A stretch of 64,000 nucleotides of DNA, taken from the NCBI GenBank assembly GCA_963844965.1, contig CAWJQC010000007.1, positions 64,001 through 128,000 on the forward strand, given 5' to 3'. The notes under the pieces were generated by a model. The model was not told the origin of the DNA. It ran no database searches and was given only the letters and a program-made list of their open reading frames with translations. Of the stretch, positions 4,702 to 40,941 are shown one piece after another (within the stretch, counting starts at the first letter, position 1; every line of letters begins with the position of its first letter). Source of the DNA: an uncultured bacterium. Its GTDB lineage: Bacteria > Patescibacteriota > Minisyncoccia > UBA6257 > 2-01-FULL-56-20. The position numbers were made by a program, and so were the translations under genes.

Positions 4702-5748
4702 CTAATCGTCGCTTTCAGTGTCTGGTCCTTCAATCGCCATGGGCTCTATATTCATGCCTTCGCCGGTGATTTTCAGAACGTCTTTGTCCACTTTTTTCAG
4801 TTCTTTGTAGGCTTTTGTATACATTCCTACCGTTGTTCCGAGGTGTGTTCCCAATTTTTGCATGTAGGCATCGTAGCTCCCGAGATGTCTTCCCAATTCT
4901 TCCACGCGGGCGCGGATTTCCTTTGCCGATTCTTCAATTTGCATCGCCTTTAGTCCCTGGAGGACCGTTTGCAGATAGGCGAGAAACGAAGTGGGGGAGA
5001 CGATGATCACCTTCTTATCTTTTGTCGCGTACTCCACGAGGTCGCGCGTGTTCGCCTTTACCGAGCCGATTTTGTTGACGAGAAGATCGTAGTAAATGGC
5101 TTCGGAGGGGATGAACATGAAGGCGAAGTCCATCGTGCCTTCGTTGGGCTTGATGTATTTTGACGTTTCGTCAATTCTGGTTTTGAGGTCGTTTTTGAAT
5201 ACTTCCTCAAGTCGTTCCCGCTCGGCGTCATTTTTCGCTTCAAGAATGCGGTTGTAATTATCAAGACTGAATTTGGAATCAATCGGTATGATCCTGTCTT
5301 TTACGAAAATGATGGCATCCACAATCGTTCCGTCCTTGAATCCGTACTGCATTTGATACGTACCCGGCGGCATGACATTCTTCAAAACCGTTTCCAGGTA
5401 ATATTCGCCGAGTATCCCGCGCTGTTTCGGGTTTTTCAGGATATCCTGGAGATTTTTCAGCTGGTCGGTTATGTTCATGACCTGCTTTTGCCCTTCGCCC
5501 ACCTTTGTGAGCTCGGTCGTGATTTCCTTGATGATTTTGGCGCTTTCGCCGAATTGTTGCTGGATCACCTTCGTAGATTCGCCGAGTTTTGTATCAAGCG
5601 TGCGTGAGAGTTCATTGATTTGGTTCTGAATCAGTAGAAACGCCTGATCTTTTTGATCGGTTTTCTTGTGAGCTCTTACGAAATTCCAGAAGATGGCGAT
5701 TCCCGCAGCTAAGACTATTAAGACGATTATGAGGAGTATTGTTTCCAT
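4702..5748 (-). CDS. rmuC: DNA recombination protein RmuC
   Basis: N-terminal transmembrane segment, a long coiled coil, and a C-terminal RmuC-type domain (FAFMFIPSEAIYYDL). Confidence 0.8.
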   Translation of the reverse strand: METILLIIVLIVLAAGIAIFWNFVRAHKKTDQKDQAFLLIQNQINELSRTLDTKLGESTKVIQQQFGESAKIIKEITTELTKVGEGQKQVMNITDQLKNLQDILKNPKQRGILGEYYLETVLKNVMPPGTYQMQYGFKDGTIVDAIIFVKDRIIPIDSKFSLDNYNRILEAKNDAERERLEEVFKNDLKTRIDETSKYIKPNEGTMDFAFMFIPSEAIYYDLLVNKIGSVKANTRDLVEYATKDKKVIIVSPTSFLAYLQTVLQGLKAMQIEESAKEIRARVEELGRHLGSYDAYMQKLGTHLGTTVGMYTKAYKELKKVDKDVLKITGEGMNIEPMAIEGPDTESDD

Positions 5749-5788
5749 TTTTTTAATTCTAACTTTTTTCGTAAAAATTTAAAACAAA

Positions 5789-5818
5789 ACCGCCGAGCAC
5801 GTATACCCGGCGGTTTTA
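5789..5818. terminator. Hairpin plus T-run, a possible bidirectional terminator
   Basis: ACCGCCG-N11-CGGCGGT palindrome flanked by AAAA on one side and TTTT on the other. Confidence 0.5.
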
Positions 5819-6164
5819 TAAAAGGCGTTTCATTTCGACCGTTATCTCAAGATGATTTTCGCCACAGTGCACAGTGGCGAGCGCACTAAACCATCTCAAT
5901 CAAACGCGTTCTACTTTGAAATCTTCTCGTTAGCCTTAGCCGCTGGATTGCTCCAAGCCGTAGGCGGTGGGCCGATAAATCGACTCTGCCTGTATGGGGG
6001 AGGCCTTTCAGCATTCCCGACTTACCTTAAGTATAGCTCCTATATTCCTCAAAGTCAAATTGTTTTATCCACAGGACAAAACATCCCCAATTTGAGCCGG
6101 GGTGTTTTTTGGGTTGCGTTTACCAGCGTCCCTGTCCGCCGCGATCTCCGCGCAGAGCCGGTTC

Positions 6165-6190
6165 AAAGAAAAAAGCTGCCATACGGCAGC
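6165..6190 (-). terminator. Intrinsic terminator of the small minus-strand ORF at 6217-6387
   Basis: Perfect GCTGCC-ATAC-GGCAGC hairpin followed on the minus strand by TTTTTTCTTT. Confidence 0.65.
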
Positions 6191-6216
6191 TATCTGGAGG
6201 ATTTACCTCCCGCACT

Positions 6217-6387
6217 TCATTTTTTTGAGGCGCGTTTTTTGCGCTTAGTACTTTTTGTGGCTGTCTCGTCAATAATTGACTCTATCTGCTTACGCCTTTT
6301 TTCTGAAACCCCCAGAATTTTCGCGACTTCTTTTGTTGTCGGGTATGGTGTGGTGATTAGGACCGGTTTCTTCTTTTGTTTTGCCAT
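6217..6387 (-). CDS. Unannotated 56-aa basic protein (MAKQKKKPVLITTPYPTTKEVAKILGVSEKRRKQIESIIDE...), possibly a small HTH-like DNA-binding protein
   Basis: Not in the ORF track because it is under 60 aa. A strong GGAGG Shine-Dalgarno sits 7 nt upstream, and its own terminator follows immediately. Confidence 0.55.
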   Translation of the reverse strand: MAKQKKKPVLITTPYPTTKEVAKILGVSEKRRKQIESIIDETATKSTKRKKRASKK

Positions 6388-6499
6388 TTTCTAGCCTCCT
6401 CGTACGAGTTAATTGATGCTAAATTTATTATATCGTCATATATACAATAAAACAACCCCGACTTTGTGTCGGGGTTGTTTTATTGTCTCAAGCGGTAAA

Positions 6500-6805
6500 T
6501 TACCAACGTCCCTGTCCGCCGCCGTAACCGCCCCTGTCTCCGCGAGGAGCCCGGGGTTCTAACGGCCGCGCTTCGTTGACCGTGAGCGTGCGTCCGCCGA
6601 ATTCCTTTCCGTTCCACATTTCAATTGCCTTGTTTGCCTCATCGTCAGAGGACATCTCAACAAAGCCGAAGCCCTTGGAGCGGCCGGACATCTTGTCAAC
6701 GATTACCGTTGCCGAGGTGACCGTGCCGGCCTGGGCGAAGGCGTTTTGCAATTCGTCCTGCGTCGTAGAGTAGGGCAGACCGCCAACGTATAACTTCTTA
6801 GCCAT
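6500..6805 (-). CDS. Glycine-rich RNA-binding protein with an RRM domain
   Basis: RNP-1 motif KGFGFVEM and RNP-2 motif LYVGGL, with a C-terminal RGDRGGYGGGQGRW tail. A ~290-nt upstream region has no ORF and is likely a long 5' leader. Confidence 0.9.
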   Translation of the reverse strand: MAKKLYVGGLPYSTTQDELQNAFAQAGTVTSATVIVDKMSGRSKGFGFVEMSSDDEANKAIEMWNGKEFGGRTLTVNEARPLEPRAPRGDRGGYGGGQGRW

Positions 6806-7118
6806 TAATTAATAAATTAACTTCTAGCTTTTAGCTCAAAGCTTTTAGTAATTTTAGTCTTCTAAAACCTAACAGCTAACACCTAAAAACTATTTTCTTG
6901 TAAGGCGACCGATTTCTCTTTATTTCGCGCACACCTCGCACACAGTTTGCTGTTGCGCGGGGCATATCCACACCTTATTTGTGCGTAGATTCGCGTTTGC
7001 GAGAACACTTACAAACATATGTAGTATACACCAATATGAAAAATAAAGCAAGAGGCGGGCTTTTTAGGCTATTTGCTTCACGCCGCTACCTCGGGCGGTG
7101 TATACTTTTTGTATATAT

Positions 7119-7589
7119 ATGCCCAAAACCAGCGCGGGAATAATTTTATATCGCAAACGCGAGGGTGGATTGGAAGTTTTGCTTGTGCACCCAGGAGGAC
7201 CGTTTTGGGCTAAAAAAGATTCGGGCGCATGGAGCGTGCCGAAGGGGGAGATTGAATCCGGCGAGGACTTGCTATCCGCCGCCAAGCGGGAATTTGAAGA
7301 GGAACTGGGGTTTACGCCGCCGTCCGTAGAGCTCTTGCCACTCGGGACGATTATTCAGAAGGGCGGGAAGGTAGTTTATGCCTGGGCGATTGAAGGGGAT
7401 TGTGACGTCCGGGCGATAAGAAGCAACACTGTTAAGGTTGAATGGCCGCCGCACTCGGGAAGACTTCAAGAGTTTCCGGAAGTGGATCGCGCGGAGTTTT
7501 TCGGAATTGAAGAAGCGAAGAAAAAAATCAACCCGGCGCAGGTTGAGCTTCTGGAGAGAGCTGGAGAGAAAAAAGGATTAGGAGCGTAA
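7119..7589 (+). CDS. NUDIX hydrolase
   Basis: Nudix box GEIESGEDLLSAAKREFEEELG. Confidence 0.85.
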   Translation: MPKTSAGIILYRKREGGLEVLLVHPGGPFWAKKDSGAWSVPKGEIESGEDLLSAAKREFEEELGFTPPSVELLPLGTIIQKGGKVVYAWAIEGDCDVRAIRSNTVKVEWPPHSGRLQEFPEVDRAEFFGIEEAKKKINPAQVELLERAGEKKGLGA

Positions 7590-7614
7590 TTTGTCGCCCC
7601 CCCTTATTTCTGTG

Positions 7615-8253
7615 TCATGCTCGGCCGAACAGCAGATAATCCTTCGGGAATATGTATTTTGTAATATGGAAAATACCGAAAGAGATAAAGAGTGCGGAGA
7701 AAACGTCTATGGAATAGTGAAGATGCCCTAAAAGGACGCTTGTGCCGCCGATCGCGGTTGAAAGAAGGAAGAAATACCTTGGAAGTTTTTCTTTCCAGAA
7801 GATGATCGCAAAGAGAAACGGCAAGCCGGTGTGCGCGGAGAAGAACAGATCGTCGCCGGAGCTCAGCTTGTGGAGAATTTCGGTCGGGTCTATATACGAT
7901 TGGGCAAGGGGAGGAGCAAGATGCGTGAGGACCATAAAAAGCGAGCGCACGAGCGTGAAAAGCGCCGCACCCTTCAAGACGAAGGGAATTCGCCGCGGTT
8001 CGTGGAGAAGCATTATCACGACTATGCATATAAAAATTAAAGCGCCCTCGTTGAAAACGAAGTCCACGTTTACTACTGGCAAATTGTCCAGAATGATATC
8101 CGTGACGGCGTTGCTCGCGCGAATGGTGGTGTAAATGTTGGCGTAATACGTCGCGACCAAACTTGCCGCAAGTAGCAGCAAGCCGAACAAAACCTGCCAA
8201 ATGAACGATTTATTTGGCCAAAGTAACTTGTGCTTTTGGAGAATTTCGCGCAT
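7615..8253 (-). CDS. PAP2-superfamily membrane protein (phosphatase / sphingomyelin-synthase-like)
   Basis: Polytopic membrane protein with SAHTG and HYSIDV motifs, the PAP2_C-type SGH...H..D pattern. Confidence 0.5.
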   Translation of the reverse strand: MREILQKHKLLWPNKSFIWQVLFGLLLLAASLVATYYANIYTTIRASNAVTDIILDNLPVVNVDFVFNEGALIFICIVVIMLLHEPRRIPFVLKGAALFTLVRSLFMVLTHLAPPLAQSYIDPTEILHKLSSGDDLFFSAHTGLPFLFAIIFWKEKLPRYFFLLSTAIGGTSVLLGHLHYSIDVFSALFISFGIFHITKYIFPKDYLLFGRA

Positions 8254-8336
8254 TTATCGCTTTGTTGCCGTCCCCGGCTGCTTGTATGGTAGTATACCAC
8301 TCCCGCGCACAGCGCGGGAGTGGTGGCTGGGGAAGA

Positions 8337-8813
8337 TTACTGCTGTGGGTTTGCTTGCTGTCCGGGATTACCTGCGGGGCTATTGGTCGGCCGTATTTGT
8401 ATTGACTGCGCGGTTACGCTGCCGTCGGAATTGGCCGTGCCGACAACGGTTACATTTTCTCCCGTCGTGAGGTCGTCAAGAGTGCCGTTCACCGATTTCG
8501 TTATGGGCGTGGAGTTTGAGACAAGGACTATTTTCGTGGAATTCCCGGAACTTGTAGAACTGCCATTGCTCAATTCCACGATTATGCTCTGGTTATCTTT
8601 GGAGATAATTTGTCCGGATACGAATCCGCCGCTATTTCCTCCGCCGGATCCACCGTTCCTCATCCTTCCTGTTCCAAACCCTTGGCCTCCTGCCGATGTG
8701 CCGCTAGACGGACTTTTAGTTCCGGTTTGCGACTTGCCATATATCATGCCGCCGTAAAACACGGCTATCACAACTATGAGTGCGCCGACGATTGTAATGA
8801 TGCGTTTTTTCAT
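8337..8813 (-). CDS. Secreted / membrane-anchored hypothetical protein, paralogous to the 14311-14789 gene
   Basis: N-terminal signal anchor, a G/S-rich linker, and a C-terminal TGENVTVVGTANSDGSVTAQSIQI block shared with the 14311-14789 gene. Confidence 0.6.
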   Translation of the reverse strand: MKKRIITIVGALIVVIAVFYGGMIYGKSQTGTKSPSSGTSAGGQGFGTGRMRNGGSGGGNSGGFVSGQIISKDNQSIIVELSNGSSTSSGNSTKIVLVSNSTPITKSVNGTLDDLTTGENVTVVGTANSDGSVTAQSIQIRPTNSPAGNPGQQANPQQ

Positions 8814-8895
8814 CTTACGGTTTTTATTTAAGCCACCCGACTAAGTGGCCGGTTTATTTGTGCTCAAGTGTTTTTTATCGGATTAGGTTCAGCGT

Positions 8896-10575
8896 CTATT
8901 TTCCGGCATTGAGCGCCGCCCGTGTCGCAGGGCCAACGTTGCCAAGTGGCTCAATGCCGTTGAGTGTTTGATATTTCTCAACAGCCGTTTCCGTGAGGGA
9001 GCCATAGTATCCCGTGATTGGTCCTGAATATATTCCTTCAGTAGTAAGCCGCTGTTGAAGTTCCGTGACATCCTGACCTGTGGAGCCGAGTGTCAGCGGA
9101 TTGAGGAATTTGTAAGTGGTAGCGGCGCTGTTGCTTTGCTGGGCTTGGGTTTGCAGTTGTGCAAGCTGGGTCTGCAATGCCTGAATTTGAGCTGTTAACG
9201 CGCTTGTGCCCGAAGCTTGAATTGTCGCGGTTGCTCCTGTCTGAACGGTGAATGGGGAAATAAAGAGCTGATTGCTGGTATTCCCGGAATAGTCGGTGAC
9301 CGTAATAGAGCAATTACTGTGTGTTCCGTCAGCCAAACTGTTAAAAATTATGTTATTCGTGCCAGCAATGGCGTTCGCCACAGAACCTGAGCAGTCCCCG
9401 CCGTAACGTATGATGCCGGCAACGTTTGAGACGAAGCCATAGCTTGGGTTTGCCGTCGTAACCACGCTTGGCACCGAAGTTACCACATAAATGAACGGCG
9501 CTGAGGAGTTAGTGTTGATTGTCCTCACCACGTCATAACCGGAAATGGGATAACTTGTGTTGCCGTTCTCGTCTGTCACCGTCACGCCGGTTATCTGAAG
9601 CGGTGTGGATTGGTTGGCTTGGCCACCTGCAACGATATAAGTGGCCGTGTATGTCGCTCCGCCGTCATTTGTATACCAAGAAAGGAGAACGCCATTGTAA
9701 TAGCCGGTTACTTTCGCGTTGGGCAGCGCCGTCCCGAGATGCAGGGTGAAGATGATTGAACCTCCCACGCTCAACACGCCTGCCGTCGTGGCGTCAGACG
9801 TGATATAACCGCTTATGGCCGCTGACGAATTCGTGCTGCCATAGATGTTTACCGTTGCCCGCCCGGAATTTCCTTGGGCATCCGTGAAGGAAACAATGAC
9901 GGGAATGGTTCCTTCCTGATCACCGCTTACTAATGTGTAGTTTACCGTGTACGGGCCGGAACCATTCCCGTTCACCGCGATCGTGTGGCCTAAAATGGTT
10001 ACGGTCGGATTCACCACGGTCTCGTTCGTGGTGAACGAAATTGTTACCATACTGCCGACGGTAGAGAAGGCGTTGTTTATATTATTGAAGTTTGCGGAAA
10101 ATGACTGAAGGATGGGCACGACGGCGCTTGTGACCTGAAATGTTCCGCCGGAGAAATAAGTTGTGTCGCTTATGCCGTAAACACCGCTGCCGATGTAGAG
10201 GTAGCCGGTCGCGCCAGGCTGGAACGGCGTGCCGTTGAAGGTAAGGGTGATGGTGTTCGTGCCGCTGCCGTTCACCGACATCAAAGCGGCTCCGGAAAGT
10301 GACCCCGTGAAGCCGCTGTAATCGCCGGGACTTGTAGCCACCGGCTCCGACCACAGAAGCGTTATCGTATTGGTACTTGTCACTTTCGCGCTTATAAGCG
10401 ACGGTCCCGCCGCGTAGACCGGATAGATGGGGGCGCTTAGCGCGATAATGCCCATGGCAAGGAAAATACTTAAGAAGGTGGACTTGTTTTTACTTGAAAC
10501 CATATTTGTTGTGTTTTTATTTTTAGTAATGGACTTTTTTTTGCAATCGTTCGACCAAACCCGCCGGAATTTCAA
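8896..10575 (-). CDS. Large secreted surface protein with a C-terminal peptidoglycan-binding domain
   Basis: Signal peptide, T/S/G-rich Ig-like repeats, and a C-terminal PG_binding_1-like segment (GSTGQDVTELQQRL...GPATRAALN). Confidence 0.7.
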   Translation of the reverse strand: MKFRRVWSNDCKKKSITKNKNTTNMVSSKNKSTFLSIFLAMGIIALSAPIYPVYAAGPSLISAKVTSTNTITLLWSEPVATSPGDYSGFTGSLSGAALMSVNGSGTNTITLTFNGTPFQPGATGYLYIGSGVYGISDTTYFSGGTFQVTSAVVPILQSFSANFNNINNAFSTVGSMVTISFTTNETVVNPTVTILGHTIAVNGNGSGPYTVNYTLVSGDQEGTIPVIVSFTDAQGNSGRATVNIYGSTNSSAAISGYITSDATTAGVLSVGGSIIFTLHLGTALPNAKVTGYYNGVLLSWYTNDGGATYTATYIVAGGQANQSTPLQITGVTVTDENGNTSYPISGYDVVRTINTNSSAPFIYVVTSVPSVVTTANPSYGFVSNVAGIIRYGGDCSGSVANAIAGTNNIIFNSLADGTHSNCSITVTDYSGNTSNQLFISPFTVQTGATATIQASGTSALTAQIQALQTQLAQLQTQAQQSNSAATTYKFLNPLTLGSTGQDVTELQQRLTTEGIYSGPITGYYGSLTETAVEKYQTLNGIEPLGNVGPATRAALNAGK

Positions 10576-10599
10576 ATAAATTGGGCGGGCAAACGATTT

Positions 10600-11838
10600 T
10601 TATTCATATCTCAGGGCCTCTATGGGATTGAGGCCGGCCGCGCGGCGGGCGGGATAATATCCGAAAACGATTCCCGTTAGCGCCGACACGCCTACGGCCA
10701 GGAAGACCGACCACCAAGAAACGCTCGTGGTAATGCTTGCGAATCTGGTTATCAGGAATGAAACTATCCAGCCGAGTATCACCCCCACAATGCCGCCGAC
10801 AAACGTGAGCATCACGGATTCCAGCAAAAACTGTATGCTTATGTCCCTTTTTTTCGCGCCAATTGCTTTGCGCAGCCCTATTTCCCTCGTCCTTTCGGTC
10901 ACGGTCGTGAGCATCATGTTCATGATCCCTATGCCGCCGACGATAAGTGAAATTCCGGCGATGGAAGCGAGAAGCATGGTGAACGTATTCGTAACGCTTG
11001 AGGCCGTGGCGACAATGTCCGATTGAGTTTGAACGGTGAAATCCGCTTGCGAAGAATCGGAAATGTTATGCCTGCCCAAAAGCAGATCGGTGATCTCGTT
11101 CTGCACTTGTGAAATTGAATTCTGGTCTTGCGCCTGGACGTCTACTTCGGAAACGTAGGACGTGCTTCCCAAAAGATAATGTTGGCCCGTTGTAAGCGGG
11201 ACATAGATGACGTTGTCCTGATTGCCGAATCCGGTGCCGCCTTTGGATACAGTGACGCCGACAACCTTGAAGTTAATGCTTTTTATCCTGATGGTATTTC
11301 CGATCGCCTCGTCCGGAGTAGCGGTGGCATTTACGCCAAAGAGGTCTTGCAGGACCGTAGGACCAATAACCGCAATCTTGTCGGATTTTGTCACGTCCGC
11401 ATCCGTGATAAAAGCGCCCTGATCGATTGCCACGTTGCGTACTTGTGTATACGCCGGGACAGTTCCCACAACGCTTGTGTTGGTGTTCGCACCCTTGTAG
11501 ATAACTTGGTATCTGCCGCTGATTTGGGAGCCGTCGCTTCCACGCCGCTCAGCCCTGCGATCGCGTCTGCGTCGTCCGGCGTCAAGGTTTGCGCGCTTCC
11601 TTGCCCTGCCCGCACACCGTAGCCCAAAGTTCTTTGTTGCCCCGGAGTTACCATTAGAAGATTTGATCCAATTGATTGGATTCGCGCGGTGATCGAATCC
11701 TTGCGCACCTTGGCCGATGGAAACCATGGCGATGACGGAGCCGATGCCGATTACGATGCCCAATATTGTGAGGCCCGACCGCACCTTGTTCACCGTTATG
11801 GCGGACGAGGCCTCGTGAAATAGTTCGGAGATGATCAT
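10600..11838 (-). pseudogene. MacB/FtsX-family ABC transporter permease with two apparent compensating frameshifts (near 11700 and 11515)
   Basis: Frame A encodes TM1 and then an implausible R-rich stretch. Frame B over the same ~190 bp encodes the conserved periplasmic segment ITARIQSIGSNLLMVTPG...LTPDDADAIAGLSGV. Frame A resumes with canonical MacB sequence and a C-terminal FtsX domain. Confidence 0.65.
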
Positions 11839-12548
11839 TGATGGTTAACGTGAACAATGCGGCGGTCGTGACTTTTGCCGTCTGTGGCTATTTCGCCGTC
11901 GAGTATGTGAATTATGCGTTCGGCGTGTTCGGCGATGTATTTTTCGTGCGTGATGAGCACGATGGTGCGTCCTTCTTCGTGCAGGTTCTGGAATGTGTCA
12001 ATGACTATTTCGCCGGTTTTTGAATCAAGATTGCCGGTCGGTTCGTCAGCTAAGATAAGCGTCGGATTATTCACGAGCGCCCGGGCAATGGCTACTCTCT
12101 GCATTTGTCCTCCCGATAGCTGATTTGAATGGTGTTGCCACCATGCTTCGGGCAGGGCCGCACCTCTAAGTGCGCGCTTCGCCTCCTCCTCCCTTTTCTC
12201 TTTCGCCGCGCCGGCGTAAATGAGGGGCAGCATTACGTTGCGGAATACCGTAGCGCGGGGCAATAGATTGAATTGCTGGAATACGAAACCTATTTTTTCG
12301 TTGCGGATGTCGGCGAGCTCGTCTTCGGAGAACTTTGAAACGTCTTTTCCATCGAGAAGATATTCTCCGCTCGTCGGCGTATCAAGAGCTCCCAGGATAT
12401 GCATCAGGGTTGACTTGCCGGAACCGGAAGGTCCCATAATCGAAACAAATTCCCCGTCTTTTATGGTGAAAGAAATGTTTTTCAGCGCCACCGTTTCAAC
12501 ATCGTCGCCGATTTTATATATTTTCGTGATGTTGCGCAGTTCGATCAT
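11835..12548 (-). CDS. ABC transporter ATP-binding protein (MacB/LolD-like)
   Basis: Walker A GPSGSGKST, signature LSGGQMQRV, and Walker B ILADEPT. Confidence 0.9.
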   Translation of the reverse strand: MIELRNITKIYKIGDDVETVALKNISFTIKDGEFVSIMGPSGSGKSTLMHILGALDTPTSGEYLLDGKDVSKFSEDELADIRNEKIGFVFQQFNLLPRATVFRNVMLPLIYAGAAKEKREEEAKRALRGAALPEAWWQHHSNQLSGGQMQRVAIARALVNNPTLILADEPTGNLDSKTGEIVIDTFQNLHEEGRTIVLITHEKYIAEHAERIIHILDGEIATDGKSHDRRIVHVNHQ

Positions 12549-12580
12549 TGTGATTTAGCCGCCGCCAGATCTACCGCCGC

Positions 12581-14278
12581 CTATGAGTATCCCGCCCCCT
12601 CCCCCAAGACCCGGAAGTCTGGTTCCCCTCCGCCCGTAGTAGCTTGCGAAGTGCCAGAAGTTATGGTTTGCGTAACGACGGCGTCTCCTTCGTTCAGGCC
12701 TGAAACTATTTCCGTCATCGTGTCGTTCGATAGGCCGACGGTTACCTCCTGTTGTTTCGGCTTACCGTCTGACCCTAGGACGCTCACATGCGAAGTTCCT
12801 TGTTTTGTCGTAACGGCAGAATTTGGCACAAGAAGCACGCCTGATTTTACGTTTGTGATAATGTTAACCGTGTCGCTCATGCTGGGTTTTACGTCCGAAG
12901 TGGAATTGTCCAGCACGATTTGCACGCCGTAGCTCACAACTCCCTGAGATACGGTTCCTACCGGATCAACCTCCGAAACTTTTCCAGTAAAGGTAACGTC
13001 CGGCAGTGCGTCAAGCGTTATTGTGGTCTCCTGCCCGACTTTTACGTTGACTATGTCGGTCTCGTTGAATGTCGCCTGCGCGAATTTCTGGTCGGAAACG
13101 ATTGTTGCGACGGCGCCGCTTGCCGTATCGCCGACTTTCACGCTGACCGAAGCAATGGTGCCGTCAAACGGTGCAACGATCGTGTAGTAACTCAAATCAT
13201 TTTGCAGGTCAACAAGATTTTGCTCCTCGGTTATAAGATTGTTATTAGCGATCTGAAGGCTTATTGGATTGTCGCCGTTGGGATTGCCGACCTGGAGTAG
13301 CGCGATGTTCTGCTTGTCGGCTGTAATCGTCTGCTTGTCTGTATCGATCGTGTTTTTCTGGGACAAGAGAGCGCTCAGGTCGTTATTCACCGTCGACAAA
13401 TAGTTCCGCGTATTTGTCTGCAGCGTATTTACCGCCGTCGGGAGGTAACGATTATACTGAGTCGCGAGATCGTTCGCCGCCCCAAGTAGATTCAACTCGT
13501 CCTGTAATGTTTGCGCAACGTCAGTCGCCATATCAATCGATTGTTCAAGTATGGTTTCAATCTGGTCGCCGCTCGAATTCCGACTTAATTGTTTATAGGC
13601 AATAACGCTCGGGTCATATTCTGCAGTCGCGGTCGCGTAGCTACTTTTTGCGCTGTCTGCAAGTGTTTCCATTGTTGATGTGGTTTTGTCGCTGAATAAG
13701 TTGATAAGTGTGTCTACGTTCCACTGGCTGGCCTTCGGGTTGATGTCTGTGCCATAGAGGACGTCTTGCATGCCGGTCATGACGTTTGGCAGGTCCAAGT
13801 AGGTGTTCGATAGCGTGTTGAACGCATCGTTATATTGGGTTTGCAAATTATCTTGATCGGTGGTGAGGGTATCAAGCGCTTTTTGGTAATCGATCGGGGC
13901 CTGAGCCGTACTTTGCTGGAGTTGGAGCTTTGCTGTTACGAGGGATTGCTTTGCGTTTGCAACTGCCTGTTGCGCATCGGTGTCATCCATCTTCATTATC
14001 GCCTGATTGGCTTTGACCTTGTCGCCCGCGCTTACCCCTATCCACGTTATCTCTCCGGCAACCTGCGCTTTTATGTCAATTTGGTACAAGGCCGCGATCT
14101 GCCCGCTGCCCGAAACAGAAACGACAAGCGTTCCTTTCTGGGCCTTAGTTGTGACGTATTGCAACTTAGTGGAAGTGCCACCTCTGATTGCGCCGTAGGC
14201 GTAGTAGGCGGCGATAATGATAACGATTGCTGCTATAACGAGAAATTTTTTATTTGTTAATATCTTTTTCATGTTCAA
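12581..14278 (-). CDS. HlyD/MacA-family periplasmic adaptor (membrane fusion protein)
   Basis: N-terminal transmembrane segment, biotin-lipoyl-like halves flanking a long coiled coil, and a C-terminal beta-barrel. It lies upstream of the ABC ATPase and permease in one operon. Confidence 0.75.
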   Translation of the reverse strand: MNMKKILTNKKFLVIAAIVIIIAAYYAYGAIRGGTSTKLQYVTTKAQKGTLVVSVSGSGQIAALYQIDIKAQVAGEITWIGVSAGDKVKANQAIMKMDDTDAQQAVANAKQSLVTAKLQLQQSTAQAPIDYQKALDTLTTDQDNLQTQYNDAFNTLSNTYLDLPNVMTGMQDVLYGTDINPKASQWNVDTLINLFSDKTTSTMETLADSAKSSYATATAEYDPSVIAYKQLSRNSSGDQIETILEQSIDMATDVAQTLQDELNLLGAANDLATQYNRYLPTAVNTLQTNTRNYLSTVNNDLSALLSQKNTIDTDKQTITADKQNIALLQVGNPNGDNPISLQIANNNLITEEQNLVDLQNDLSYYTIVAPFDGTIASVSVKVGDTASGAVATIVSDQKFAQATFNETDIVNVKVGQETTITLDALPDVTFTGKVSEVDPVGTVSQGVVSYGVQIVLDNSTSDVKPSMSDTVNIITNVKSGVLLVPNSAVTTKQGTSHVSVLGSDGKPKQQEVTVGLSNDTMTEIVSGLNEGDAVVTQTITSGTSQATTGGGEPDFRVLGEGAGYS

Positions 14279-14310: not shown

Positions 14311-14789
14311 TTACCGCAGAATACGTATGAAACTTGCTTCTATTTGGCCGCTTTCGTCCGGAGAGCCGATGACAACGACCGGGTCACCGGTTTTAAAATC
14401 AGCAATCTGGATTTCTTCACCGCCTTCACGCATGATTGTAGAAGGAAGGATGGTTGCGGTCCTCTCGATCCGTCTTGGCCGCTTATGGCTATGCTGGAAC
14501 TCGTTGTGTTTAGAACCGTGCCGAAAGCGCCGTGCGCATTTATGGGGCCAGGGTTTGGAGGAGTTCCTGGGGCGCCTATAAATCCTGGGCCTGCTGGAAT
14601 TCCTAATATGTTATGACGTTCTCCTCCGAAATTGCGGCCATAGTTCTCTCCCCAGGCGTACGAAAACCGCGCCTTGTTATAGCCAACCAAAATCCCTGCG
14701 CCGAAAGATATTAAAACTATAATAAGCAGGCCGACGCCGATGACGATTCTCTTGAAAAGTTTTGATTGGAGAAAATTATTGTAGTTCAT
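14311..14789 (-). pseudogene. Secreted hypothetical protein (paralog of 8337-8813) with an apparent frameshift near 14455
   Basis: The ORF-track frame loses protein-like character after ...SSSIAISGQDG. An alternative frame gives ...TATILPSTIMREGGEEIQIADFKTGDPVVVIGSPDESGQIEASFIRILR, which matches the C-terminal block of the 8337-8813 paralog. Confidence 0.5.
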
Positions 14790-14792: not shown

Positions 14793-15221
14793 TTAGTTGC
14801 TCTTTACAAGTTTTGAGAACGAGAAGGTGTCGCTCGCGTATTTGGCGGCATATTTGAGCGACTCAAGGAGGACGAGAAGTGTAGTCAGGAAAACTGCCAG
14901 GTAAACAACGGGGAGTGACTCCAGGAGGAACGAACCGAAGTCCAACCAATTGGCCGCGATTGACAGAGGGTCGGAGACGATAAGCGAAAGGAGTTTGAAT
15001 ATTTGTGACTCCGCAAGCGCACCCTCCAGCGATAAGAACGCGGCCAAAAAAGCGATTGCCGAACCGAAAAGCGCGAAAACGAAAAATACCGTTCTCTTTC
15101 GAACCACTTCAAATTTTTTCTCGGCGCGTATGCGGTTCATTATCTTGCCACAAAGACAAGAAGGCGGCGTCGCCGCTTCCTTGTTGTCAAGGAAAATATC
15201 AGTTTTATCGCCTTGTTCCAT
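14793..15221 (-). CDS. Putative membrane anti-sigma factor (partner of the adjacent ECF sigma factor)
   Basis: Lies directly downstream of the ECF sigma gene in the same orientation. It has a cytoplasmic N-terminus with Cys residues and a central transmembrane region. The call rests on position only. Confidence 0.4.
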   Translation of the reverse strand: MEQGDKTDIFLDNKEAATPPSCLCGKIMNRIRAEKKFEVVRKRTVFFVFALFGSAIAFLAAFLSLEGALAESQIFKLLSLIVSDPLSIAANWLDFGSFLLESLPVVYLAVFLTTLLVLLESLKYAAKYASDTFSFSKLVKSN

Positions 15222-15256
15222 AACAATAATACGGCGGGACCGGCGTTTTTGGTGCG

Positions 15257-15880
15257 TTAATCCTCGTTTTCCGGCGCTTTGGCGTAGCTGCGCAAAAGAT
15301 GGATGGCGCGCCAGTAATGGCTTTTGACTGTGTTCAGCGGTTTCTTTAATTTTTTGGCTATTTCCTTGAACGTTAGATATTCTTTGTTCCGCATCGTTAT
15401 TACCGCTTGGTAGTGTTCCGGCAAACTGTTGGCGGCCGCATTCACTTTCTCGGCGGCCATCTTAATGTCCAGTGTGGCGTCGGGCAGGGCAAGCGAATCG
15501 GCCACTTCAAGAATCGGATTTTCGTTTTCTTCTCTGGTCGCGAGCGAAGAGAACGGCAAGGCCCCGCGCTTCTTCAGCCAATCAAGCGCCGTGTTTTTGG
15601 CGATGGCGTAGAGCCACGGTTTGAATTGTTTTGTCCGGTCAAATTTTTTCAGATTGCGCCAGACCTTGATGAATGTTTCCTGCGCGATATCGGCGGCTTT
15701 GTCGGTGTCGCCGGTATAGCGCCGCGAAAAACCATAAATCAACGGTAGGTATCTTTTAATAAGAACCTCCAAAGCCGTTTCATCGCCTTTGCGCGATAAG
15801 AGAATAAGTTCTTCGTCTTTTAGATTTTCCAAATTATTCATGCCTACAGTGTCCATTTTAGCACAACCAAAAGAAATCAC
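15257..15880 (-). CDS. RNA polymerase ECF-type sigma-70 factor
   Basis: Sigma70 region 2 (LIYGFSRRY...AQETFIKVW) and region 4 (LTFKEIAKKLKKPLNTVKSHYWRA). The true start is probably an internal Met (MDTVG or MNNLEN). Confidence 0.85.
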   Translation of the reverse strand: MISFGCAKMDTVGMNNLENLKDEELILLSRKGDETALEVLIKRYLPLIYGFSRRYTGDTDKAADIAQETFIKVWRNLKKFDRTKQFKPWLYAIAKNTALDWLKKRGALPFSSLATREENENPILEVADSLALPDATLDIKMAAEKVNAAANSLPEHYQAVITMRNKEYLTFKEIAKKLKKPLNTVKSHYWRAIHLLRSYAKAPENED

Positions 15881-16136
15881 GCAAGCTCAGTATGGTTGTT
15901 TGTGGTGTTTTTGGAGGTTTATCTAAACATAGACGTTAAATTATGAATAATATCTGAAGAATCATGGGCATGGGTATGACGCATTTCGGGCGTTTACACG
16001 AATCCCGGAAAGAAATCGGTTTTGATTCGTCGCCTTTCTAACCCAATGTTTTTTGATACTTCTTCAAATGCGACGACCATGGAGCGCGGGCCCGAGGGGT
16101 AGAACATTCTTTTCCGATAGTCCGGGATTTCTTTTT

Positions 16137-16535
16137 CTAATTCCAGTTTAGGGCCGTTATGGTGAGTTGCAACACTGTCGCGAATAAGACCCAGAGGAGG
16201 TACGGAATATTTACGAGGGCGATCCAATTCGCGTAGGGATAGATCGCGGCGATTGTCCAGACAAGTGTAGCGAGTACGAGGAGAATGTCGATTGCCGCCA
16301 GGATATTATTTCGCAGGCCGAATTGGATCGGCGCGAAGGCAAGATTGGAAACGAGATTCAGGGCGAACGGCAGAGCCGTTATCTTTGGCAATTGGCCCTC
16401 TGCGATTTTATAGAATGTCGCGCCAAAAGAAACAGCGATAATCGCGTAGAGTACTGTCCAGACCGGCCCGAAGAGCCAGGCGGGCGGAGCCCACGACGGC
16501 TTCGTTAATGTTTGATACCAAGCGTAAGCGCTCAC
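16137..16535 (-). CDS. TspO/MBR tryptophan-rich sensory protein
   Basis: Five-transmembrane, Trp-rich sequence (WYQTLTKPSWAPPAWLFGPVWTVLY), as in the TspO family. Confidence 0.8.
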   Translation of the reverse strand: MSAYAWYQTLTKPSWAPPAWLFGPVWTVLYAIIAVSFGATFYKIAEGQLPKITALPFALNLVSNLAFAPIQFGLRNNILAAIDILLVLATLVWTIAAIYPYANWIALVNIPYLLWVLFATVLQLTITALNWN

Positions 16536-16690
16536 CTGTTAATTCTATATTTTTTTGGGAAATTTGAAAGTTTCGGGCGCAATGATTTTTTCGGCTGGCT
16601 GGATTTTGGTTTGGATTCGAGCTCATTAAGTAAATCCAGTTATTCTGGTACTATAATAGTGTTCTGGCTGAGAAAAAATAAAAGTTCTCA

Positions 16691-19208
16691 ATGCGCAAAC
16701 AAGATGTTCTCGGGATAAGTTTGAGCGGGCTTTTTGGCGAATTGAGATCGTCCGAGAACGGTCTCACCGAAGAAGAAGCCGCCAAACGTTTTCGCGAGCA
16801 CGGTCCGAATATTCTCAAAAAAGAAGGCGTTAGCGCGCTCGGAGTTTTGCTTCGCCAATTCCAAAGCTCACTGATTTATCTTCTTGTCGCGGCGAGCGCG
16901 ATATCTTTTTGGATTAGGGATTATTCGGATGGGACGATTATCGCCGTTATTCTCCTCGTCAACGCCTCCCTGGGATTTTTTCAGGAATATAGATCGGAAA
17001 AGATCGTTGAGAAACTTTCAAAGTTTATCAGCCACCAAGTTCGCCTCAGGAGAAGCGGGCAGATTGTGTTATTGGACGAATCACGGATTGTTGTCGGAGA
17101 CGTGCTTGTCGTTCGCGAAGGCGATATTGTTCCGGCGGACATGCGGCTGTTTGAAGCCGACAATCTGGAAGTGAACGAGTCGCAGCTTACGGGCGAGTCG
17201 GTGCCGGTCGTTAAGCGTGTCTCAAATGATATCGCCAAAAATCCCGACTGCCTCGTTTTCACTGGCAGCGTCATTGAGAAAGGTGAGGGCGTTGGGATTG
17301 TCTATGCGATCGGCAACGACACGGAATTGGGAACTATCGCCAGGTTGTCAACGGAAACAAAGAAAGAAACGCAGTATGAGAAATCACTGCGGTCATTCAG
17401 TTCTTCTTTGATGAAAGTTGTTCTCCTCGGCTTGGCCCTGGTTTTCGCGCTCAAGTTGATTTTGAACGGAGGATTTTCAAACGCAGCGGGTCTTTTGCTT
17501 TTTATCATAGCCATGGCCGTTGCCGTGGTGCCCGAAGTTCTGCCGGTTATCGCCACGGTTACCTTGTCAAACGGAGCATTGAAACTCGCCAAAAGGCATG
17601 TGGTAGTTAAACGCCTGTCGTCGCTGGAGGATCTCGGCAATGTGGATTTGCTGTGCGCCGATAAGACAGGGACCATCACCGAAAACAGAATGGTCATAAA
17701 CAAAATTGTTTCCGCCGATGATAAATTGTTTCAGGAGCTTGCCTACGCCGCCATTACGCCCCTGAAAGGCAGAAAGAGAAGGATGCAGAATTCGTATGAC
17801 GACGCGTTCAACCGATATGTTTCCGACGCCGTGAGGAAAGAGGCGGTGAATTTCAGAGATCTTGAAAGAACTTCCTTTTGACCCGTATGACAGGAGAAGC
17901 CGGGTGGTGCTTGAGGATGCGGCGCACGGAAAACACTTTCTGCTTTCAATCGGCGCCCCCGAAGCGGTCTTTGAAATTAGCGGGAGCGAGCAAAAAGCGA
18001 AATATCTGGAAGACATCGCCGCGGAAGGCAGAAAAGGCCTGCATCATCTGGCGATAGCGTACAAGGAAGTATCATATGCTAACGATTTTGATATTTTGAA
18101 AAACGAACGCGATTTGAAATTCCTCGGATATGTGAGTTTAGAAGATCCGTTGCGGCCTACGGCCAAGAATACCGTTTACCTTGCCGAAAAACTTGGCATA
18201 AAAATCAAAATCCTGACGGGAGACAGCAAAGAGGTCGCCGAGTATGTCGGAAAGCAAATAGGGTTGGTGAAAGAGGGAGATAAAGAGGAAGATAAGGTGT
18301 ATCTCGGCGGCGAACTTGAGAAAATGTCGGAGGACGAATTCAGGACAGCCGTTCGGAGATGCAATGTGTTCGCCAGAGTTTCTCCGACCGATAAATACAA
18401 TATTATAAGGGCTCTCAAGGAAACTAATGTCGTCGGCTACGAGGGAGACGGCATCAATGACGCTCCGGCGCTGAAACTGGCGGACGTGGCGATCGCGGTC
18501 AACTCGGCCACGGACATCGCCAAGGAAAATTCCGACATTGTTCTTCTCAACAAAAGCCTTGAGGTCGTTATCAACGGCATAAAATACGGCAGGTCCATAT
18601 TCGTGAATATCAATAAGTATATTAAATACACCATGGTAAATAATTTTGGCACCTTTATTGCACTGGCCGTTTTATACTTGCTGTCTGCCTATTTACCAAT
18701 GCTCCCGATTCAAATACTTTTGACGAATGTGATTACAGACATTCCTCTCGTCACAATTTCGTCCGACACGGTTGAAGATGTAGAAGTAGTGCGGCCGGAA
18801 AAACACAATACGAAAGAACTGGTGTTCATCTCGCTTATTCTGGGAATTCCAACGGCTTTTTTTGAACTTCTCTACTTCTTGATTATCCGCTCACATCCCC
18901 GAGAGTTCGTGGCAACAGGCCTTTACGTCTTCCTTACCTTCTTGGCATTAATTGTTTTCTATGCGATAAGAAACAAAGAAAATTTCTGGAAAACAAAGCA
19001 GCCATCCCGTCTTTTGAACGTCTCTTTTGTGCTCGCTTTTGTCTTCTCGCTCGCGATCATTTATATGCCCCAGTTTCAGGCGTGGTTTTCCTTCGTGCCG
19101 TTGCCCGCGGCGTCGGTGATTGTCATTCTAATTCTGATGGTGCTCTACCTTTTCGCGGTGGATTTCGTCAAGGTGAGGTATTACAAGTTTTCTGCGGGGG
19201 AGAAATGA
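16691..19208 (+). pseudogene. P-type cation-transporting ATPase split by an apparent frameshift near 17855
   Basis: ORF1 (16691-17881) carries TGESVPV and DKTGTIT. ORF2 (17862-19208, TTG start) carries ELPFDPYDRR, GDGINDAPAL and C-terminal transmembrane helices. The two ORFs overlap by 20 nt in different frames. Confidence 0.75.
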
Positions 19209-22263: not shown

Positions 22264-22483
22264 CAACCAACTCCACCACAACTGCCGACTCCGCCAAGCA
22301 GTTTCTTGCGACAAACGCAGAAGTTTTTAGGGAGCATCTTGGATGTATTCACGAGGTAAGGATTTTTGCAATAAAATAGATTGTTATTCCTCCCGGCCCT
22401 CTCCTTCGGTTCGAATCCAGACTGTCAAAACGAGAAATAAAAATGAACGGCGCAAGACCGTTCATTTTTATTTTAGCTCCAGG

Positions 22484-22545: not shown

Positions 22546-22644
22546 TTTTACATTTTGAGGGAGATGGAGCGGTTGGAAATATCTAAATGTAAAGGATAGG
22601 TTTCTTTAGACAGTGATTCGACGGCTTTTTGCCGTTTTTTTTCG

Positions 22645-23427
22645 TTAAGCCGCAATCTTCTCGGCAAACACGGACGGCGGCATCTTGAGGGCGGAGTGGA
22701 TCCGCGTGTGGTTGTACTGCCACAAGGTGCTGTAGATCTCCGCCACGAGCTCGCCGAAGGTCCCGAACCGGTTGGGATCACCGAGGTCAATCTTGAACTT
22801 GTCATAGAACGATTCCTGGTAGCCGTTTTCCCATGGGGCACCGGGCCGCGACCGCGAGATCGTGATGCCACAGTCCCCCAGTGTATCGGTGAACGCTCGT
22901 GCCTTGTACTCGCTGCCGTTGTCCGAATGGAAGATGACCGGATGCGGATGGTGGAAAAGCGCGTTGGCCAGGGTCTGTATCGTGAGGGGCGATCCTTTCC
23001 GCAACGCCACATGGACGCCCATCAATCGTCTCGTGAAAAGATCGAGTATCGTGGACACGTACACTTTCTTGCCGCGATACAGGAACTCCGTGAAATCGGT
23101 TGCCCAGACGTGGTTCGCGTACGAGGGCATGATGGCAAGTAAGAGGTTCGGAAAGGCCCGCGATGCCTTTGATTTCCGGTATTTCCTGCCTCGCCTCCGG
23201 TACGGCCTTATGCCGAAGATTCGCATGACGCGCTGCGCTCGCGGACGGCTCACGCCCAGAGCTTGTCCCAAGCGCCGGGAACCGTATGCCGGATGGCGCT
23301 GCAATTCTTCTTCCATGCGGATCTTGAGCGCCCAATCTTTCTTGTCCTGCCGTGATACGTAGTAGAGCGATGCCCGCGAGACGCCCATGGCCCGCGCCAT
23401 GGCGGACTTGTTCCGCTTTTCCGTCAA
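22645..23427 (-). CDS. IS3-family transposase OrfB (DDE integrase, rve domain)
   Basis: HSDNGSEYKARAF...PGAPWENGYQESFY rve-type DDE motif. Confidence 0.9.
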   Translation of the reverse strand: MTEKRNKSAMARAMGVSRASLYYVSRQDKKDWALKIRMEEELQRHPAYGSRRLGQALGVSRPRAQRVMRIFGIRPYRRRGRKYRKSKASRAFPNLLLAIMPSYANHVWATDFTEFLYRGKKVYVSTILDLFTRRLMGVHVALRKGSPLTIQTLANALFHHPHPVIFHSDNGSEYKARAFTDTLGDCGITISRSRPGAPWENGYQESFYDKFKIDLGDPNRFGTFGELVAEIYSTLWQYNHTRIHSALKMPPSVFAEKIAA

Positions 23428-23687
23428 TTCTTTTTTTGGGCCTGGGAGAGCTTCACGGTGAGCTCGCCCACCACTTCAAACAGCTCCCTGTTCTGCTTCT
23501 GGAGACGGCTGAACTCGCCCCAGGAAGGGACGCCCGATGCTCCTGCGCCTAGCCAATTGTAGATGGTGGACTCGTGCAAACCGTGGTCCTTCGCAGCCTG
23601 CGCTACGGGGACTCCTTCTTCCTTCACCCGGCGGAGGATGTCCGCCTTCACTTCCTTCGCAATCCGATGCCCTTTTTTGTTGCTCAT
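23424..23687 (-). CDS. IS3-family transposase OrfA (HTH)
   Basis: HTH segment VPVAQAAKDHGLHESTIYNWL. The ORF ends at an A AAA AAG slippery site that overlaps the start of orfB. Confidence 0.85.
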   Translation of the reverse strand: MSNKKGHRIAKEVKADILRRVKEEGVPVAQAAKDHGLHESTIYNWLGAGASGVPSWGEFSRLQKQNRELFEVVGELTVKLSQAQKKN

Positions 23688-23741
23688 GACACAATGGTAG
23701 TTTGTTTCGACCTTTGTGTCTAAATTATCCTATCCGGGTCA

Positions 23742-40935: not shown

Positions 40936-40941
40936 AATTTT

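What the first reader, a model, noticed from the sequence alone, without database searches (positions are those of the whole stretch)
10600..11838. MacB/FtsX-type ABC permease appears to carry two compensating frameshifts
The long ORF encodes TM1 and then ~60 aa of Arg-rich nonsense. The overlapping frame (ORF 11391-11708, GTG-initiated in the track) encodes the canonical periplasmic segment ...ITARIQSIGSNLLMVTPGQQ...LTPDDADAIAGLSGV. The shifts fall near 11700 and 11515. Either the permease of this MacAB-like efflux system is a pseudogene, or the assembly has two indel errors within 190 bp.
Basis: partly seen in the sequence, partly recalled or inferred. Interest (0 to 1): 0.5.

Follow-up and report, generated by a model that had tools for sequence, protein, structure and literature searches.

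The report
Assembly-error frameshifts in MacB permease gene
An ordinary efflux-pump permease gene of a Patescibacteria genome reads out of frame for 58 codons because of one extra and one missing base, and these are most likely consensus errors of the assembly linked to GATC sites, not biology.

Summary
The minus-strand ORF 11838..10600 (412 aa) is a MacB/FtsX-type permease. Its residues 47-104 are Arg-rich nonsense. The overlapping frame (11699..11526) encodes the expected periplasmic segment.

Removing one base at 11695-11703 and adding one at 11523-11533 gives a 412-aa protein. It aligns without gaps to the eight closest relatives (83-84% identity). It carries every invariant residue and models as MacB.

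Codon-position statistics show that the hidden frame was the selected one until essentially now. No homologue has the Arg-rich stretch.

The lesion is not isolated. A small membrane-protein gene (about 14468) and a P-type ATPase (17855-17858) are also frameshifted within 6.4 kb.

Three of the four indels abut GATC. So do two of five differences from independent Logan contigs of the same strain. So do three of six ends of those contigs.

A perfect 1,162-nt inverted repeat resolved inside the contig suggests a long-read assembly.

Best reading: motif-linked consensus errors, and the real gene is intact. A genuine, very recent pseudogene is not excluded without reads. Interest is low.

The parts
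10600..11838 (-). MacB/FtsX-type ABC permease gene as assembled (412 aa, P0001). Its start ATG overlaps the stop of the ATPase gene (ATGA).
   Evidence: Pfam MacB_PCD plus FtsX. MacB structures 5gko, 5lil, 5nik and 5xu1 matched by sequence and by fold.
11526..11700 (-). Stretch read in the wrong frame in the assembled ORF (residues 47-104, Arg-rich). The true frame is +1 and encodes the stalk end and the first beta-alpha-beta of the periplasmic domain.
   Evidence: Codon-position pattern. AF2 pLDDT is 23-28 as assembled versus a structured model when repaired.
11695..11703 (-). Indel site 1: one extra base in CAAGGATTCGATC. It lies 1 nt from GATC at 11691-11694.
   Evidence: Nucleotide alignment with L082 and L084. 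Frames.
11523..11533 (-). Indel site 2: one missing base in ACGGC^TCCCAAATC. The nearest GATC is 26 nt away.
   Evidence: Nucleotide alignment. Distance to GATC.
11835..12548 (-). ABC ATPase partner (237 aa), intact.
   Evidence: Pfam ABC_tran. NCBIfam MacB positions 5-233. 85-87% identity to relatives.
12581..14278 (-). Membrane-fusion (HlyD/YknX-type) adaptor (565 aa). It is intact except for a dubious Gly-rich C-terminal tail.
   Evidence: Pfam HlyD_D23 and HlyD_3. TIGR01730 above its cut-off. Alignment. Alternative-frame tail.
14317..14789 (-). Small membrane protein with a DUF5666-like C-terminus, frameshifted. One base is missing at GACGG^ATCGAG (14467-14471), inside or next to GATC.
   Evidence: Homologue L082_6966_7427 residues 1-102 align in frame -3 and residues 103-153 in frame -2. 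Syntenic homologues are collinear. Sequence.
14793..15880 (-). Upstream conserved genes: a 142-aa membrane protein (possible anti-sigma factor) and an ECF-type sigma-70 (207 aa).
   Evidence: Pfam Sigma70_r2 and r4. Synteny in L081-L085.
16691..19208 (+). MgtA-like P-type ATPase split into 396-aa and 448-aa ORFs by one extra base in AGAG 17855-17858, overlapping GATC at 17858-17861.
   Evidence: Pfam domains are divided between the two ORFs. Homologues are single proteins of 830-845 aa. The junction alignment has no gaps.

Best explanation
The gene encodes a normal 412-aa MacB-type permease. It belongs to a three-gene adaptor/ATPase/permease efflux system of a Patescibacteria bacterium. The apparent double frameshift is most likely an error of the assembled consensus: one spurious extra base at 11695-11703 and one dropped base at 11523-11533.

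These errors belong to a local set of at least four single-base indels in three genes between 11.5 and 17.9 kb. This stretch is dense in GATC. In the underlying read data, GATC sites of this organism appear to be poorly resolved.

The most economical cause is miscalling at modified GATC sites in long-read (nanopore-type) data at modest coverage. That platform assignment is inferred, not shown.

Shown:
- the frames and the positions of the indels;
- the additional frameshifted genes;
- the GATC association;
- the differences from independent contigs of the same strain.

Inferred:
- that the lesions are absent from the organism's DNA;
- the sequencing platform;
- that base modification is the cause.
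For: 1. Repair by -1 nt and +1 nt gives a protein that aligns without gaps to all close homologues and has every invariant residue of the segment: S55, G57, N59, L60, P65, G72, G80, L85, D89.

2. Differences from relatives inside the hidden frame sit at third codon positions (0.43, against 0.12-0.22 at first and second positions). The rest of the gene shows the same pattern, so there has been no decay.

3. Two more genes within 6.4 kb carry single-base frameshifts that their homologues lack. The genes elsewhere in the window that match a Pfam family are, with few exceptions, matched over nearly the whole profile.

4. Three of the four indel intervals touch GATC. GATC is the most enriched 4-mer (nominal p 3.4e-4; family-wise p about 0.005 by permutation).

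5. Logan contigs from run ERR10755942 carry the same strain (99.9% identity over 9.7 kb; a 1.1-kb contig from a second run, SRR18214601, is identical). They differ from the window at five places. One is a coding indel at 7560. Two are at GATC/AATC.

6. Three of the six ends of those contigs fall exactly at GATC (p 8e-5 to 4e-4).

7. The region 10.9-15.4 kb has 19 GATC sites, and Logan yields no complete gene there.

8. A perfect 1,162-nt inverted repeat is resolved within the contig. This is typical of long-read assembly.

9. Nanopore consensus indels that cause frameshifts at low coverage, and assembly errors linked to methylated GATC/GANTC, are documented (PMC9262707, PMC12392509, PMC11610603).

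10. As assembled, a +11 net-charge segment (16 R/K against 5 D/E) follows TM1 on the outer side, and AF2 leaves residues 43-104 unstructured.
Against: - No reads were available, so the lesions have not been shown to be absent from the DNA.
- Published methylation-linked nanopore errors are mainly substitutions, not indels.
- Site 2 is 26 nt from the nearest GATC.
- The four indels cluster in 6.4 kb of 64 kb (roughly p 0.004 under uniform placement; my own estimate). Random error alone does not predict this. It needs the GATC density or a local coverage or strain problem as an added assumption.
- No independent assembly shows the intact gene.
Confidence: 0.82

Rival explanations
1. The two indels are real and very recent. 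The permease, the small membrane protein and the P-type ATPase are young pseudogenes in this strain. The macB frame restoration is either accidental or a selected partial rescue.
For: - The sequence as assembled is all that is observed.
- The lesions cluster in a few neighbouring genes rather than across the window.
- An off-frame stretch of 58 codons is free of stops only 13% of the time in this genome. That mildly favours a selected compensation.
Against: - There is no relaxation of codon-position constraint in the hidden frame.
- Partner genes are intact and 77-87% identical to relatives.
- Three unrelated genes on both strands would each need an independent recent hit.
- The GATC association also shows up in technical features of an independent assembly, namely contig ends and base discrepancies.
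- The replaced segment would probably destroy the periplasmic domain.
Confidence: 0.12
2. Programmed recoding: the ribosome or RNA polymerase shifts +1 near 11700 and -1 near 11528, so the intact protein is made from the sequence as assembled.
For: The two shifts compensate exactly.
Against: - All close homologues encode the segment collinearly with no shift.
- No X XXY YYZ heptamer, stop or rare-codon context, or long homopolymer is present at either site.
- Rfam finds nothing in the window except a tRNA.
- Two other genes nearby carry uncompensated shifts.
Confidence: 0.01
3. A genuine GATC-targeted mutational process, such as nicking or cleavage at GATC followed by imprecise repair, produced clustered real indels in this lineage.
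For: GATC is enriched at the indel sites. Adenine-methyltransferase-like and restriction-like genes are present in the window.
Against: - The same motif marks contig ends and base disagreements between two assemblies of one strain. That points to the data, not the genome.
- Most GATC sites are unaffected.
- I know of no mechanism that gives +/-1 nt at such sites.
Confidence: 0.04

Closest known systems
MacB-type (type VII) ABC permeases with a separate ATPase and a membrane-fusion adaptor, as in Streptococcus pneumoniae Spr0693-0694-0695 (PDB 5xu1) and Bacillus subtilis YknXYZ (YknZ domain, PDB 5f9q)
   Same: - Four-helix topology with a large extracytoplasmic domain between TM1 and TM2 (MacB_PCD plus FtsX).
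- The ATPase is a separate polypeptide encoded just upstream with an ATGA overlap.
- A YknX/HlyD-type adaptor gene lies upstream.
- Foldseek TM-score is 0.71/0.75 to 5xu1_M. The YknZ domain is also matched.
   Different: - Sequence identity to solved members is only 25-34%.
- The host is a Patescibacteria bacterium.
- The operon sits behind an ECF sigma factor and two small membrane proteins.
- The substrate is unknown.
- As assembled, the gene is out of frame for 58 codons.
Gram-negative MacB of MacAB-TolC (PDB 5gko, 5lil, 5nik)
   Same: Best sequence matches (E 7.7e-62 to 5gko over residues 3-410). The hidden-frame segment aligns to MacB residues about 319-372. Same fold.
   Different: The nucleotide-binding domain is not fused. 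NCBIfam MacB equivalog scores 237 bits against a cut-off of 966. No TolC-type partner was seen in the window.
Frameshift artefacts in long-read metagenome-assembled genomes
   Same: - Single-base indels split or scramble otherwise conserved genes.
- Several genes are affected.
- The errors are linked to a short methylation-type motif.
- A resolved long exact repeat is present in the contig.
- Such artefacts are described in PMC9262707, PMC12392509 and PMC11610603.
   Different: The platform of this assembly is not known to me. The sites are not long homopolymers. Published motif-linked errors are mostly substitutions.

Membership tests
MacB/FtsX-type (type VII) ABC permease | N-terminal TM helix followed by a MacB-like periplasmic core domain (PF12704) | tested here: met
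   PF12704 positions 1-206 of 207. Score 127.2 bits as assembled and 163.9 bits repaired, against a cut-off of 27.
MacB/FtsX-type (type VII) ABC permease | C-terminal FtsX domain with three TM helices (PF02687) | tested here: met
   82.6 bits, profile positions 2-120 of 120. AF2 predicts helices 272-315, 330-367 and 375-402.
MacB/FtsX-type (type VII) ABC permease | Overall fold like solved MacB or Spr0695 | tested here: met
   Foldseek: 5gko E 2.5e-30; 5xu1_M TM-score 0.71/0.75. The model has moderate confidence (pLDDT 71.8).
MacB/FtsX-type (type VII) ABC permease | Cognate ABC ATPase and membrane-fusion adaptor encoded alongside | tested here: met
   The ATPase gene 11835-12548 overlaps the permease start. 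The adaptor gene 12581-14278 passes TIGR01730 (150.7 bits against 94.9).
E. coli-type MacB (NCBIfam NF007826 equivalog) | ATPase fused N-terminally to the permease, with a score above the equivalog cut-off | tested here: not met
   237 bits against a cut-off of 966. Only profile positions 259-646 are matched. The ATPase is a separate gene.
Pseudogene | Reading frame disrupted relative to homologues | tested here: met
   58 codons are out of frame as assembled.
Pseudogene | Relaxed selection or further decay in the affected gene | tested here: not met
   The excess of third-position differences is retained in the hidden frame, and no other lesions are present.
Pseudogene | The lesion is present in the organism's DNA (supported by reads) | not testable with these tools
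   No reads are available. Independent Logan contigs stop at 10926 and do not reach the sites.
Programmed frameshift | The shift site is conserved in homologues, with a slippery motif | tested here: not met
   Homologues are collinear. No slippery heptamer is present. There is no Rfam element.
Long-read consensus error | Other genes in the same assembly carry indel frameshifts that homologues lack | tested here: met
   Gene 14317-14789. P-type ATPase 16691-19208. An indel against the Logan contig at 7560.
Long-read consensus error | Errors are linked to a short motif or a systematic context | tested here: met
   GATC lies at 3 of 4 indels, with family-wise p about 0.005. GATC also lies at 2 of 5 differences between assemblies and at 3 of 6 Logan contig ends.
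Long-read consensus error | The assembly was made from long, error-prone reads | tested here: inconclusive
   A 1,162-nt perfect inverted repeat is resolved inside the contig, and the contig is 331,718 bp. The source record and its platform were not identified.

The most novel reading that the evidence does not exclude
The indels are real. Under this reading, a lineage of Patescibacteria recently suffered clustered single-base indels at or next to GATC sites, a motif-targeted mutational process. In macB a second indel restored the frame. The result would be a permease whose first periplasmic beta-alpha-beta unit is replaced by an Arg-rich stretch.
Probability: 0.07. Interest if true: 0.45.

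Novelty: not a real feature. Interest (0 to 1): 0.08.

Why it matters
The main value is as a quality flag. The deposited protein (412 aa, a singleton cluster) carries 58 wrong residues. Two neighbouring genes are mis-called. The same contig probably holds further GATC-linked base errors.

If such GATC-linked indels are common in assemblies of organisms that modify GATC, a motif-aware frameshift check would be a cheap filter. The biology itself, a MacB/YknXYZ-type efflux operon behind an ECF sigma factor, is ordinary and widely conserved in Patescibacteria.

Tried and rejected
- **Programmed frameshifting.** Rejected. Homologues are collinear and there is no slippery motif or RNA element.

- **Classical homopolymer error.** The contexts are runs of only 1-3 bases, so this alone does not explain the sites.

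- **Independent intact copy of the gene.**
  - The best non-self protein is 84% identical.
  - A degenerate DNA pattern for the hidden peptide finds nothing in JGI metagenomes.
  - The repaired 159-aa neighbour is not in the protein collection.
  - Logan contigs of the same strain stop 600 nt short of the sites.

- **Identifying the source genome.** An exact look-up of the ORF found no contig on record. The run identifiers are not in the paper library. Supplements of the Microflora Danica long-read paper are not held. The link to that project is only a guess, based on similar-looking records such as L001.

- **A fifth frameshift in TspO (16137-16535), which lacks profile positions 1-21.** No frame upstream encodes a TM helix, so this was rejected.

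- **Hi-C ligation junctions as the reason why Logan contigs end at GATC.** The contig ends lack GATCGATC and do not even contain an intact GATC. This is less likely than miscalling.

- **Deciding which assembly is right.** At 5649-50 and 16490 the positions are variable, so this was inconclusive. At 7560 the Logan tail ...LLERLERKKD looks more natural to me than ...LLERAGEKKGLGA, but PDB homologues do not cover the tail.

- **GANTC as an alternative motif.** It is present as assembled only at site 1, so it was not pursued.

Full report
**1. Observation**

The ORF 11838..10600 on the minus strand (412 aa) and the overlapping GTG-initiated ORF 11391..11708 are present as described. I translated the gene strand codon by codon.

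- Frame 0 encodes TM1 (...LTILGIVIGIGSVIAMVSIGQGAQ).
- Frame 0 then gives 58 residues of Arg-rich sequence (GFDHRANPINW...RRRRDRRAERRGSDGS; 13 R and 3 K).
- Frame 0 then continues as QISGRYQVIYKG....
- Frame +1 between 11699 and 11526 encodes DSITARIQSIGSNLLMVTPGQQRTLGYGVRAGQGSAQTLTPDDADAIAGLSGVEATAP.

I spliced frame 0, frame +1 and frame 0 together. The result is a 412-aa protein.

- Its Pfam MacB_PCD score is 163.9 bits, against 127.2 for the ORF as assembled.
- The repaired protein aligns without a single gap to the eight closest proteins in a 5.8-billion-sequence collection. These are 83-84% identical and all 412 aa long.
- It carries every invariant residue of the segment in a 65-sequence alignment.
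- The hidden peptide is 84% identical to residues 48-103 of P0009 (E 5e-27).
- The Arg-rich peptide matches none of 119 homologues.
- Against 1.84 billion representative proteins, the Arg-rich peptide gives only two marginal low-complexity hits.

The homologues that would have argued for a genuine Arg-rich segment do not exist.

**2. Where the lesions are**

I aligned the gene at the nucleotide level with two relatives (76-77% nucleotide identity).

- There is one extra base in GCGCAAGGATTCGATC (11695-11703).
- There is one missing base in ACGGC^TCCCAAATC (11523-11533).

Neither site is a long homopolymer.

**3. Is the hidden frame still under selection?**

I compared the 58 hidden-frame codons with the two relatives. 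Differences fall at third positions (0.43 per codon) far more often than at first or second positions (0.12-0.22). The rest of the gene shows the same pattern (0.50-0.53 against 0.06-0.13). The hidden frame has therefore been the translated frame for essentially all of the divergence. The lesions are either extremely recent or not real.

An off-frame run of 58 codons without a stop occurs 13% of the time in this genome. The open long ORF is therefore not remarkable.

**4. The gene and its system**

- The repaired protein matches MacB structures by sequence (5gko, E 7.7e-62 over residues 3-410; also 5lil, 5nik and 5xu1).
- Its AlphaFold model (pLDDT 71.8) matches them by fold. The best TM-scores are to S. 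pneumoniae Spr0695.
- The model of the ORF as assembled has pLDDT 23-28 and no secondary structure over residues 43-104. Its pTM falls from 0.55 to 0.35.
- Upstream lie an intact ABC ATPase, joined by an ATGA overlap, and a YknX/HlyD-type adaptor.
- The conserved neighbourhood in relatives runs: ECF sigma factor, two small membrane proteins, adaptor, ATPase, permease, DUF5666-like protein, PAP2.
- Names given to homologues place the organism in Patescibacteria (Paceibacterota/Minisyncoccia).

This is an ordinary MacB/YknXYZ-type efflux operon with a separate ATPase.

**5. The lesion is not isolated**

A codon-usage scan recovered the macB segment. It also flagged gene 14340-14789.

- *Gene 14317-14789.* Syntenic homologues show that residues 1-102 of this small membrane protein lie in one frame and residues 103-153 in another. 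One base is missing at GACGG^ATCGAG (14467-14471).
- *P-type ATPase.* This gene is split into 396-aa and 448-aa ORFs. Pfam domains are divided between them. Homologues are single proteins of 830-845 aa. The junction alignment has no gaps, which places one extra base in AGAG 17855-17858.
- *Rest of the window.* I scanned the other genes of about 130 aa or more against Pfam. Those that match a family are, with few exceptions, matched over nearly the whole profile.

So at least four single-base indels hit three genes within 6.4 kb, and I detected none elsewhere.

**6. A motif link**

Three of the four indel intervals touch GATC. There are 170 GATC sites in 64 kb.

- In an unbiased test over all 4-mers, GATC is the most enriched. 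Nominal p is 3.4e-4. Family-wise p is about 0.005 by permutation.
- The stretch 10.9-15.4 kb holds 19 GATC sites, which is denser than the window average.

**7. An independent assembly of the same strain**

While following a side lead, I found that an identical protein from the window is also held in Logan. Look-ups then gave Logan contigs from run ERR10755942 that cover window 5266-10926, 15377-16991 and 52432-54869. A 1.1-kb contig from SRR18214601 was also found.

- The three ERR10755942 contigs are 99.88-99.96% identical to the window; the SRR18214601 contig is 100% identical.
- They differ from it at five places.
  - One is a coding indel at 7560, in the tail of a NUDIX gene.
  - Two are at GATC/AATC: window GAATCC against Logan GGATCC at 16617, and window AGATC against Logan CAATC at 5649-50.
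- Three of the six ends of the ERR10755942 contigs fall exactly at GATC (p 8e-5 to 4e-4).
- Those ends do not contain GATCGATC junctions.
- None of the five genes between 10.9 and 15.4 kb exists in full length in Logan. That assembly therefore breaks up in the same GATC-rich stretch.

The contigs do not reach the frameshift sites. The decisive comparison could not be made.

**8. Interpretation**

GATC marks three kinds of anomaly: the frameshifts, the disagreements between two assemblies of one strain, and the breakpoints of a k-mer assembly. That points to the sequence data, not the genome.

- A perfect 1,162-nt inverted repeat is resolved inside the contig. The contig is 331,718 bp. Both fit a long-read assembly.
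- Nanopore consensus indels cause frameshifts below about 40-fold coverage (PMC9262707).
- Assembly errors occur at or near methylated GATC and GANTC sites (PMC12392509 and PMC11610603).
- The published motif-linked errors are mostly substitutions.
- Two adenine-methyltransferase-like genes lie in the window. Their specificity is unknown.

I conclude, with confidence of about 0.8, that the double frameshift is a consensus artefact and the true gene is intact.

A real and very recent pseudogenisation remains possible (about 0.12). It would need three independent recent hits in neighbouring genes that happen to fall at a motif which also troubles the read data.

Programmed recoding is effectively excluded. 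Homologues are collinear, there is no slippery site, and there is no RNA element.

**9. Limits**

- I had no reads.
- I could not identify the source record or its platform.
- Site 2 is not next to a GATC.
- The clustering of the indels is explained only partly by GATC density.

**10. Verdict**

I resolve it towards assembly error. The feature is not real biology and interest is low. The practical output is a corrected protein sequence and a warning about GATC-linked errors in this contig.

Noticed in passing
window 14317-14789 (minus): A small membrane protein with a DUF5666-like C-terminus is frameshifted. One base is missing at GACGG^ATCGAG (14467-14471). The deposited 149-aa product has a nonsense tail, and the repaired protein is 159 aa.
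   Followed up: yes
window 16691-19208 (plus): An MgtA-like P-type ATPase is split into 396-aa and 448-aa ORFs by one extra base at 17855-17858, next to GATC. Homologues are single proteins of 830-845 aa.
   Followed up: yes
window 7560; L088 position 3368: The window has one base more than the Logan contig of the same strain. This changes the tail of a NUDIX hydrolase: 163 aa ...LLERAGEKKGLGA against 153 aa ...LLERLERKKD. Which version is right is undecided.
   Followed up: partly
window 5649-5650, 16490, 16617, 53565; L087, L088, L090: These are base differences between the window and Logan contigs from run ERR10755942. Two are at GATC/AATC. Three of the six ends of those contigs fall exactly at GATC (10926, 16991, 54869).
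   Followed up: partly
window 22587-23748 and 26627-27788: A perfect 1,162-nt inverted repeat. Each arm carries an IS3-like pair: an 87-aa HTH_Tnp_1 ORF and a 260-aa rve integrase ORF. The arms flank a 902-aa ResIII/SNF2-type helicase gene in a low-GC stretch (0.40). tRNA-Asn lies at 27859-27935, just outside one arm. It looks like a composite transposon.
   Followed up: partly
window 53037-54617 (minus): A single 526-aa ORF fuses a full LexA repressor (DNA-binding domain plus S24 peptidase, above the NCBIfam LexA cut-off) to an N6/N4 DNA methyltransferase domain. More than 100 protein clusters of 500-530 aa, several named from Patescibacteria, share this architecture. It is therefore real and conserved. 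Its function is unexplored here.
   Followed up: partly
window 22261-22263 and 22264-22359 (plus): A Cys-repeat, Pro/Gln-rich secreted protein (20578-22263) ends at a TAA. The same Pro-rich repeat then continues in frame for 11 codons, followed by a plausible tail (SFLRQTQKFLGSILDVFTR). This may be a premature stop or a base error.
   Followed up: no
window 12558-12670 (minus): The Gly-rich C-terminal tail of the adaptor protein differs from relatives (...GGGEPDFRVLGEGAGYS against ...SLLGGGGGPPL). An alternative frame reads ...TRLPGLGGGGGILIGGGRSGGG* and ends 7 nt before the ATPase start. This may be a further indel in the G-runs, but the evidence is weak.
   Followed up: partly
window 16137-16535 (minus): The TspO/MBR protein is only 132 aa and starts at Pfam profile position 22. 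It therefore lacks the first TM helix. No upstream frame encodes that helix.
   Followed up: partly
window 38776-42507 (plus): A run of genes typical of a defence or mobile island: an N6/N4 adenine-methyltransferase-like gene, an IS200-type Y1 transposase, an Mrr-like restriction endonuclease domain protein, a NYN-domain protein and a PD-(D/E)XK nuclease. Three of them sit in the same frame, separated by 6 nt.
   Followed up: no
window 8896-10575 (minus): A 559-aa secreted protein with a C-terminal peptidoglycan-binding domain is inserted between the permease gene and the DUF5666-like gene. Close relatives (L081, L082, L084) lack it at this place.
   Followed up: no
whole window: Palindromic 4-mer counts are strongly skewed. 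Observed/expected ratios are CTAG 0.10, TCGA 0.28, GTAC 0.33, CATG 0.48 and GATC 0.68. This hints at several restriction-modification specificities.
   Followed up: no
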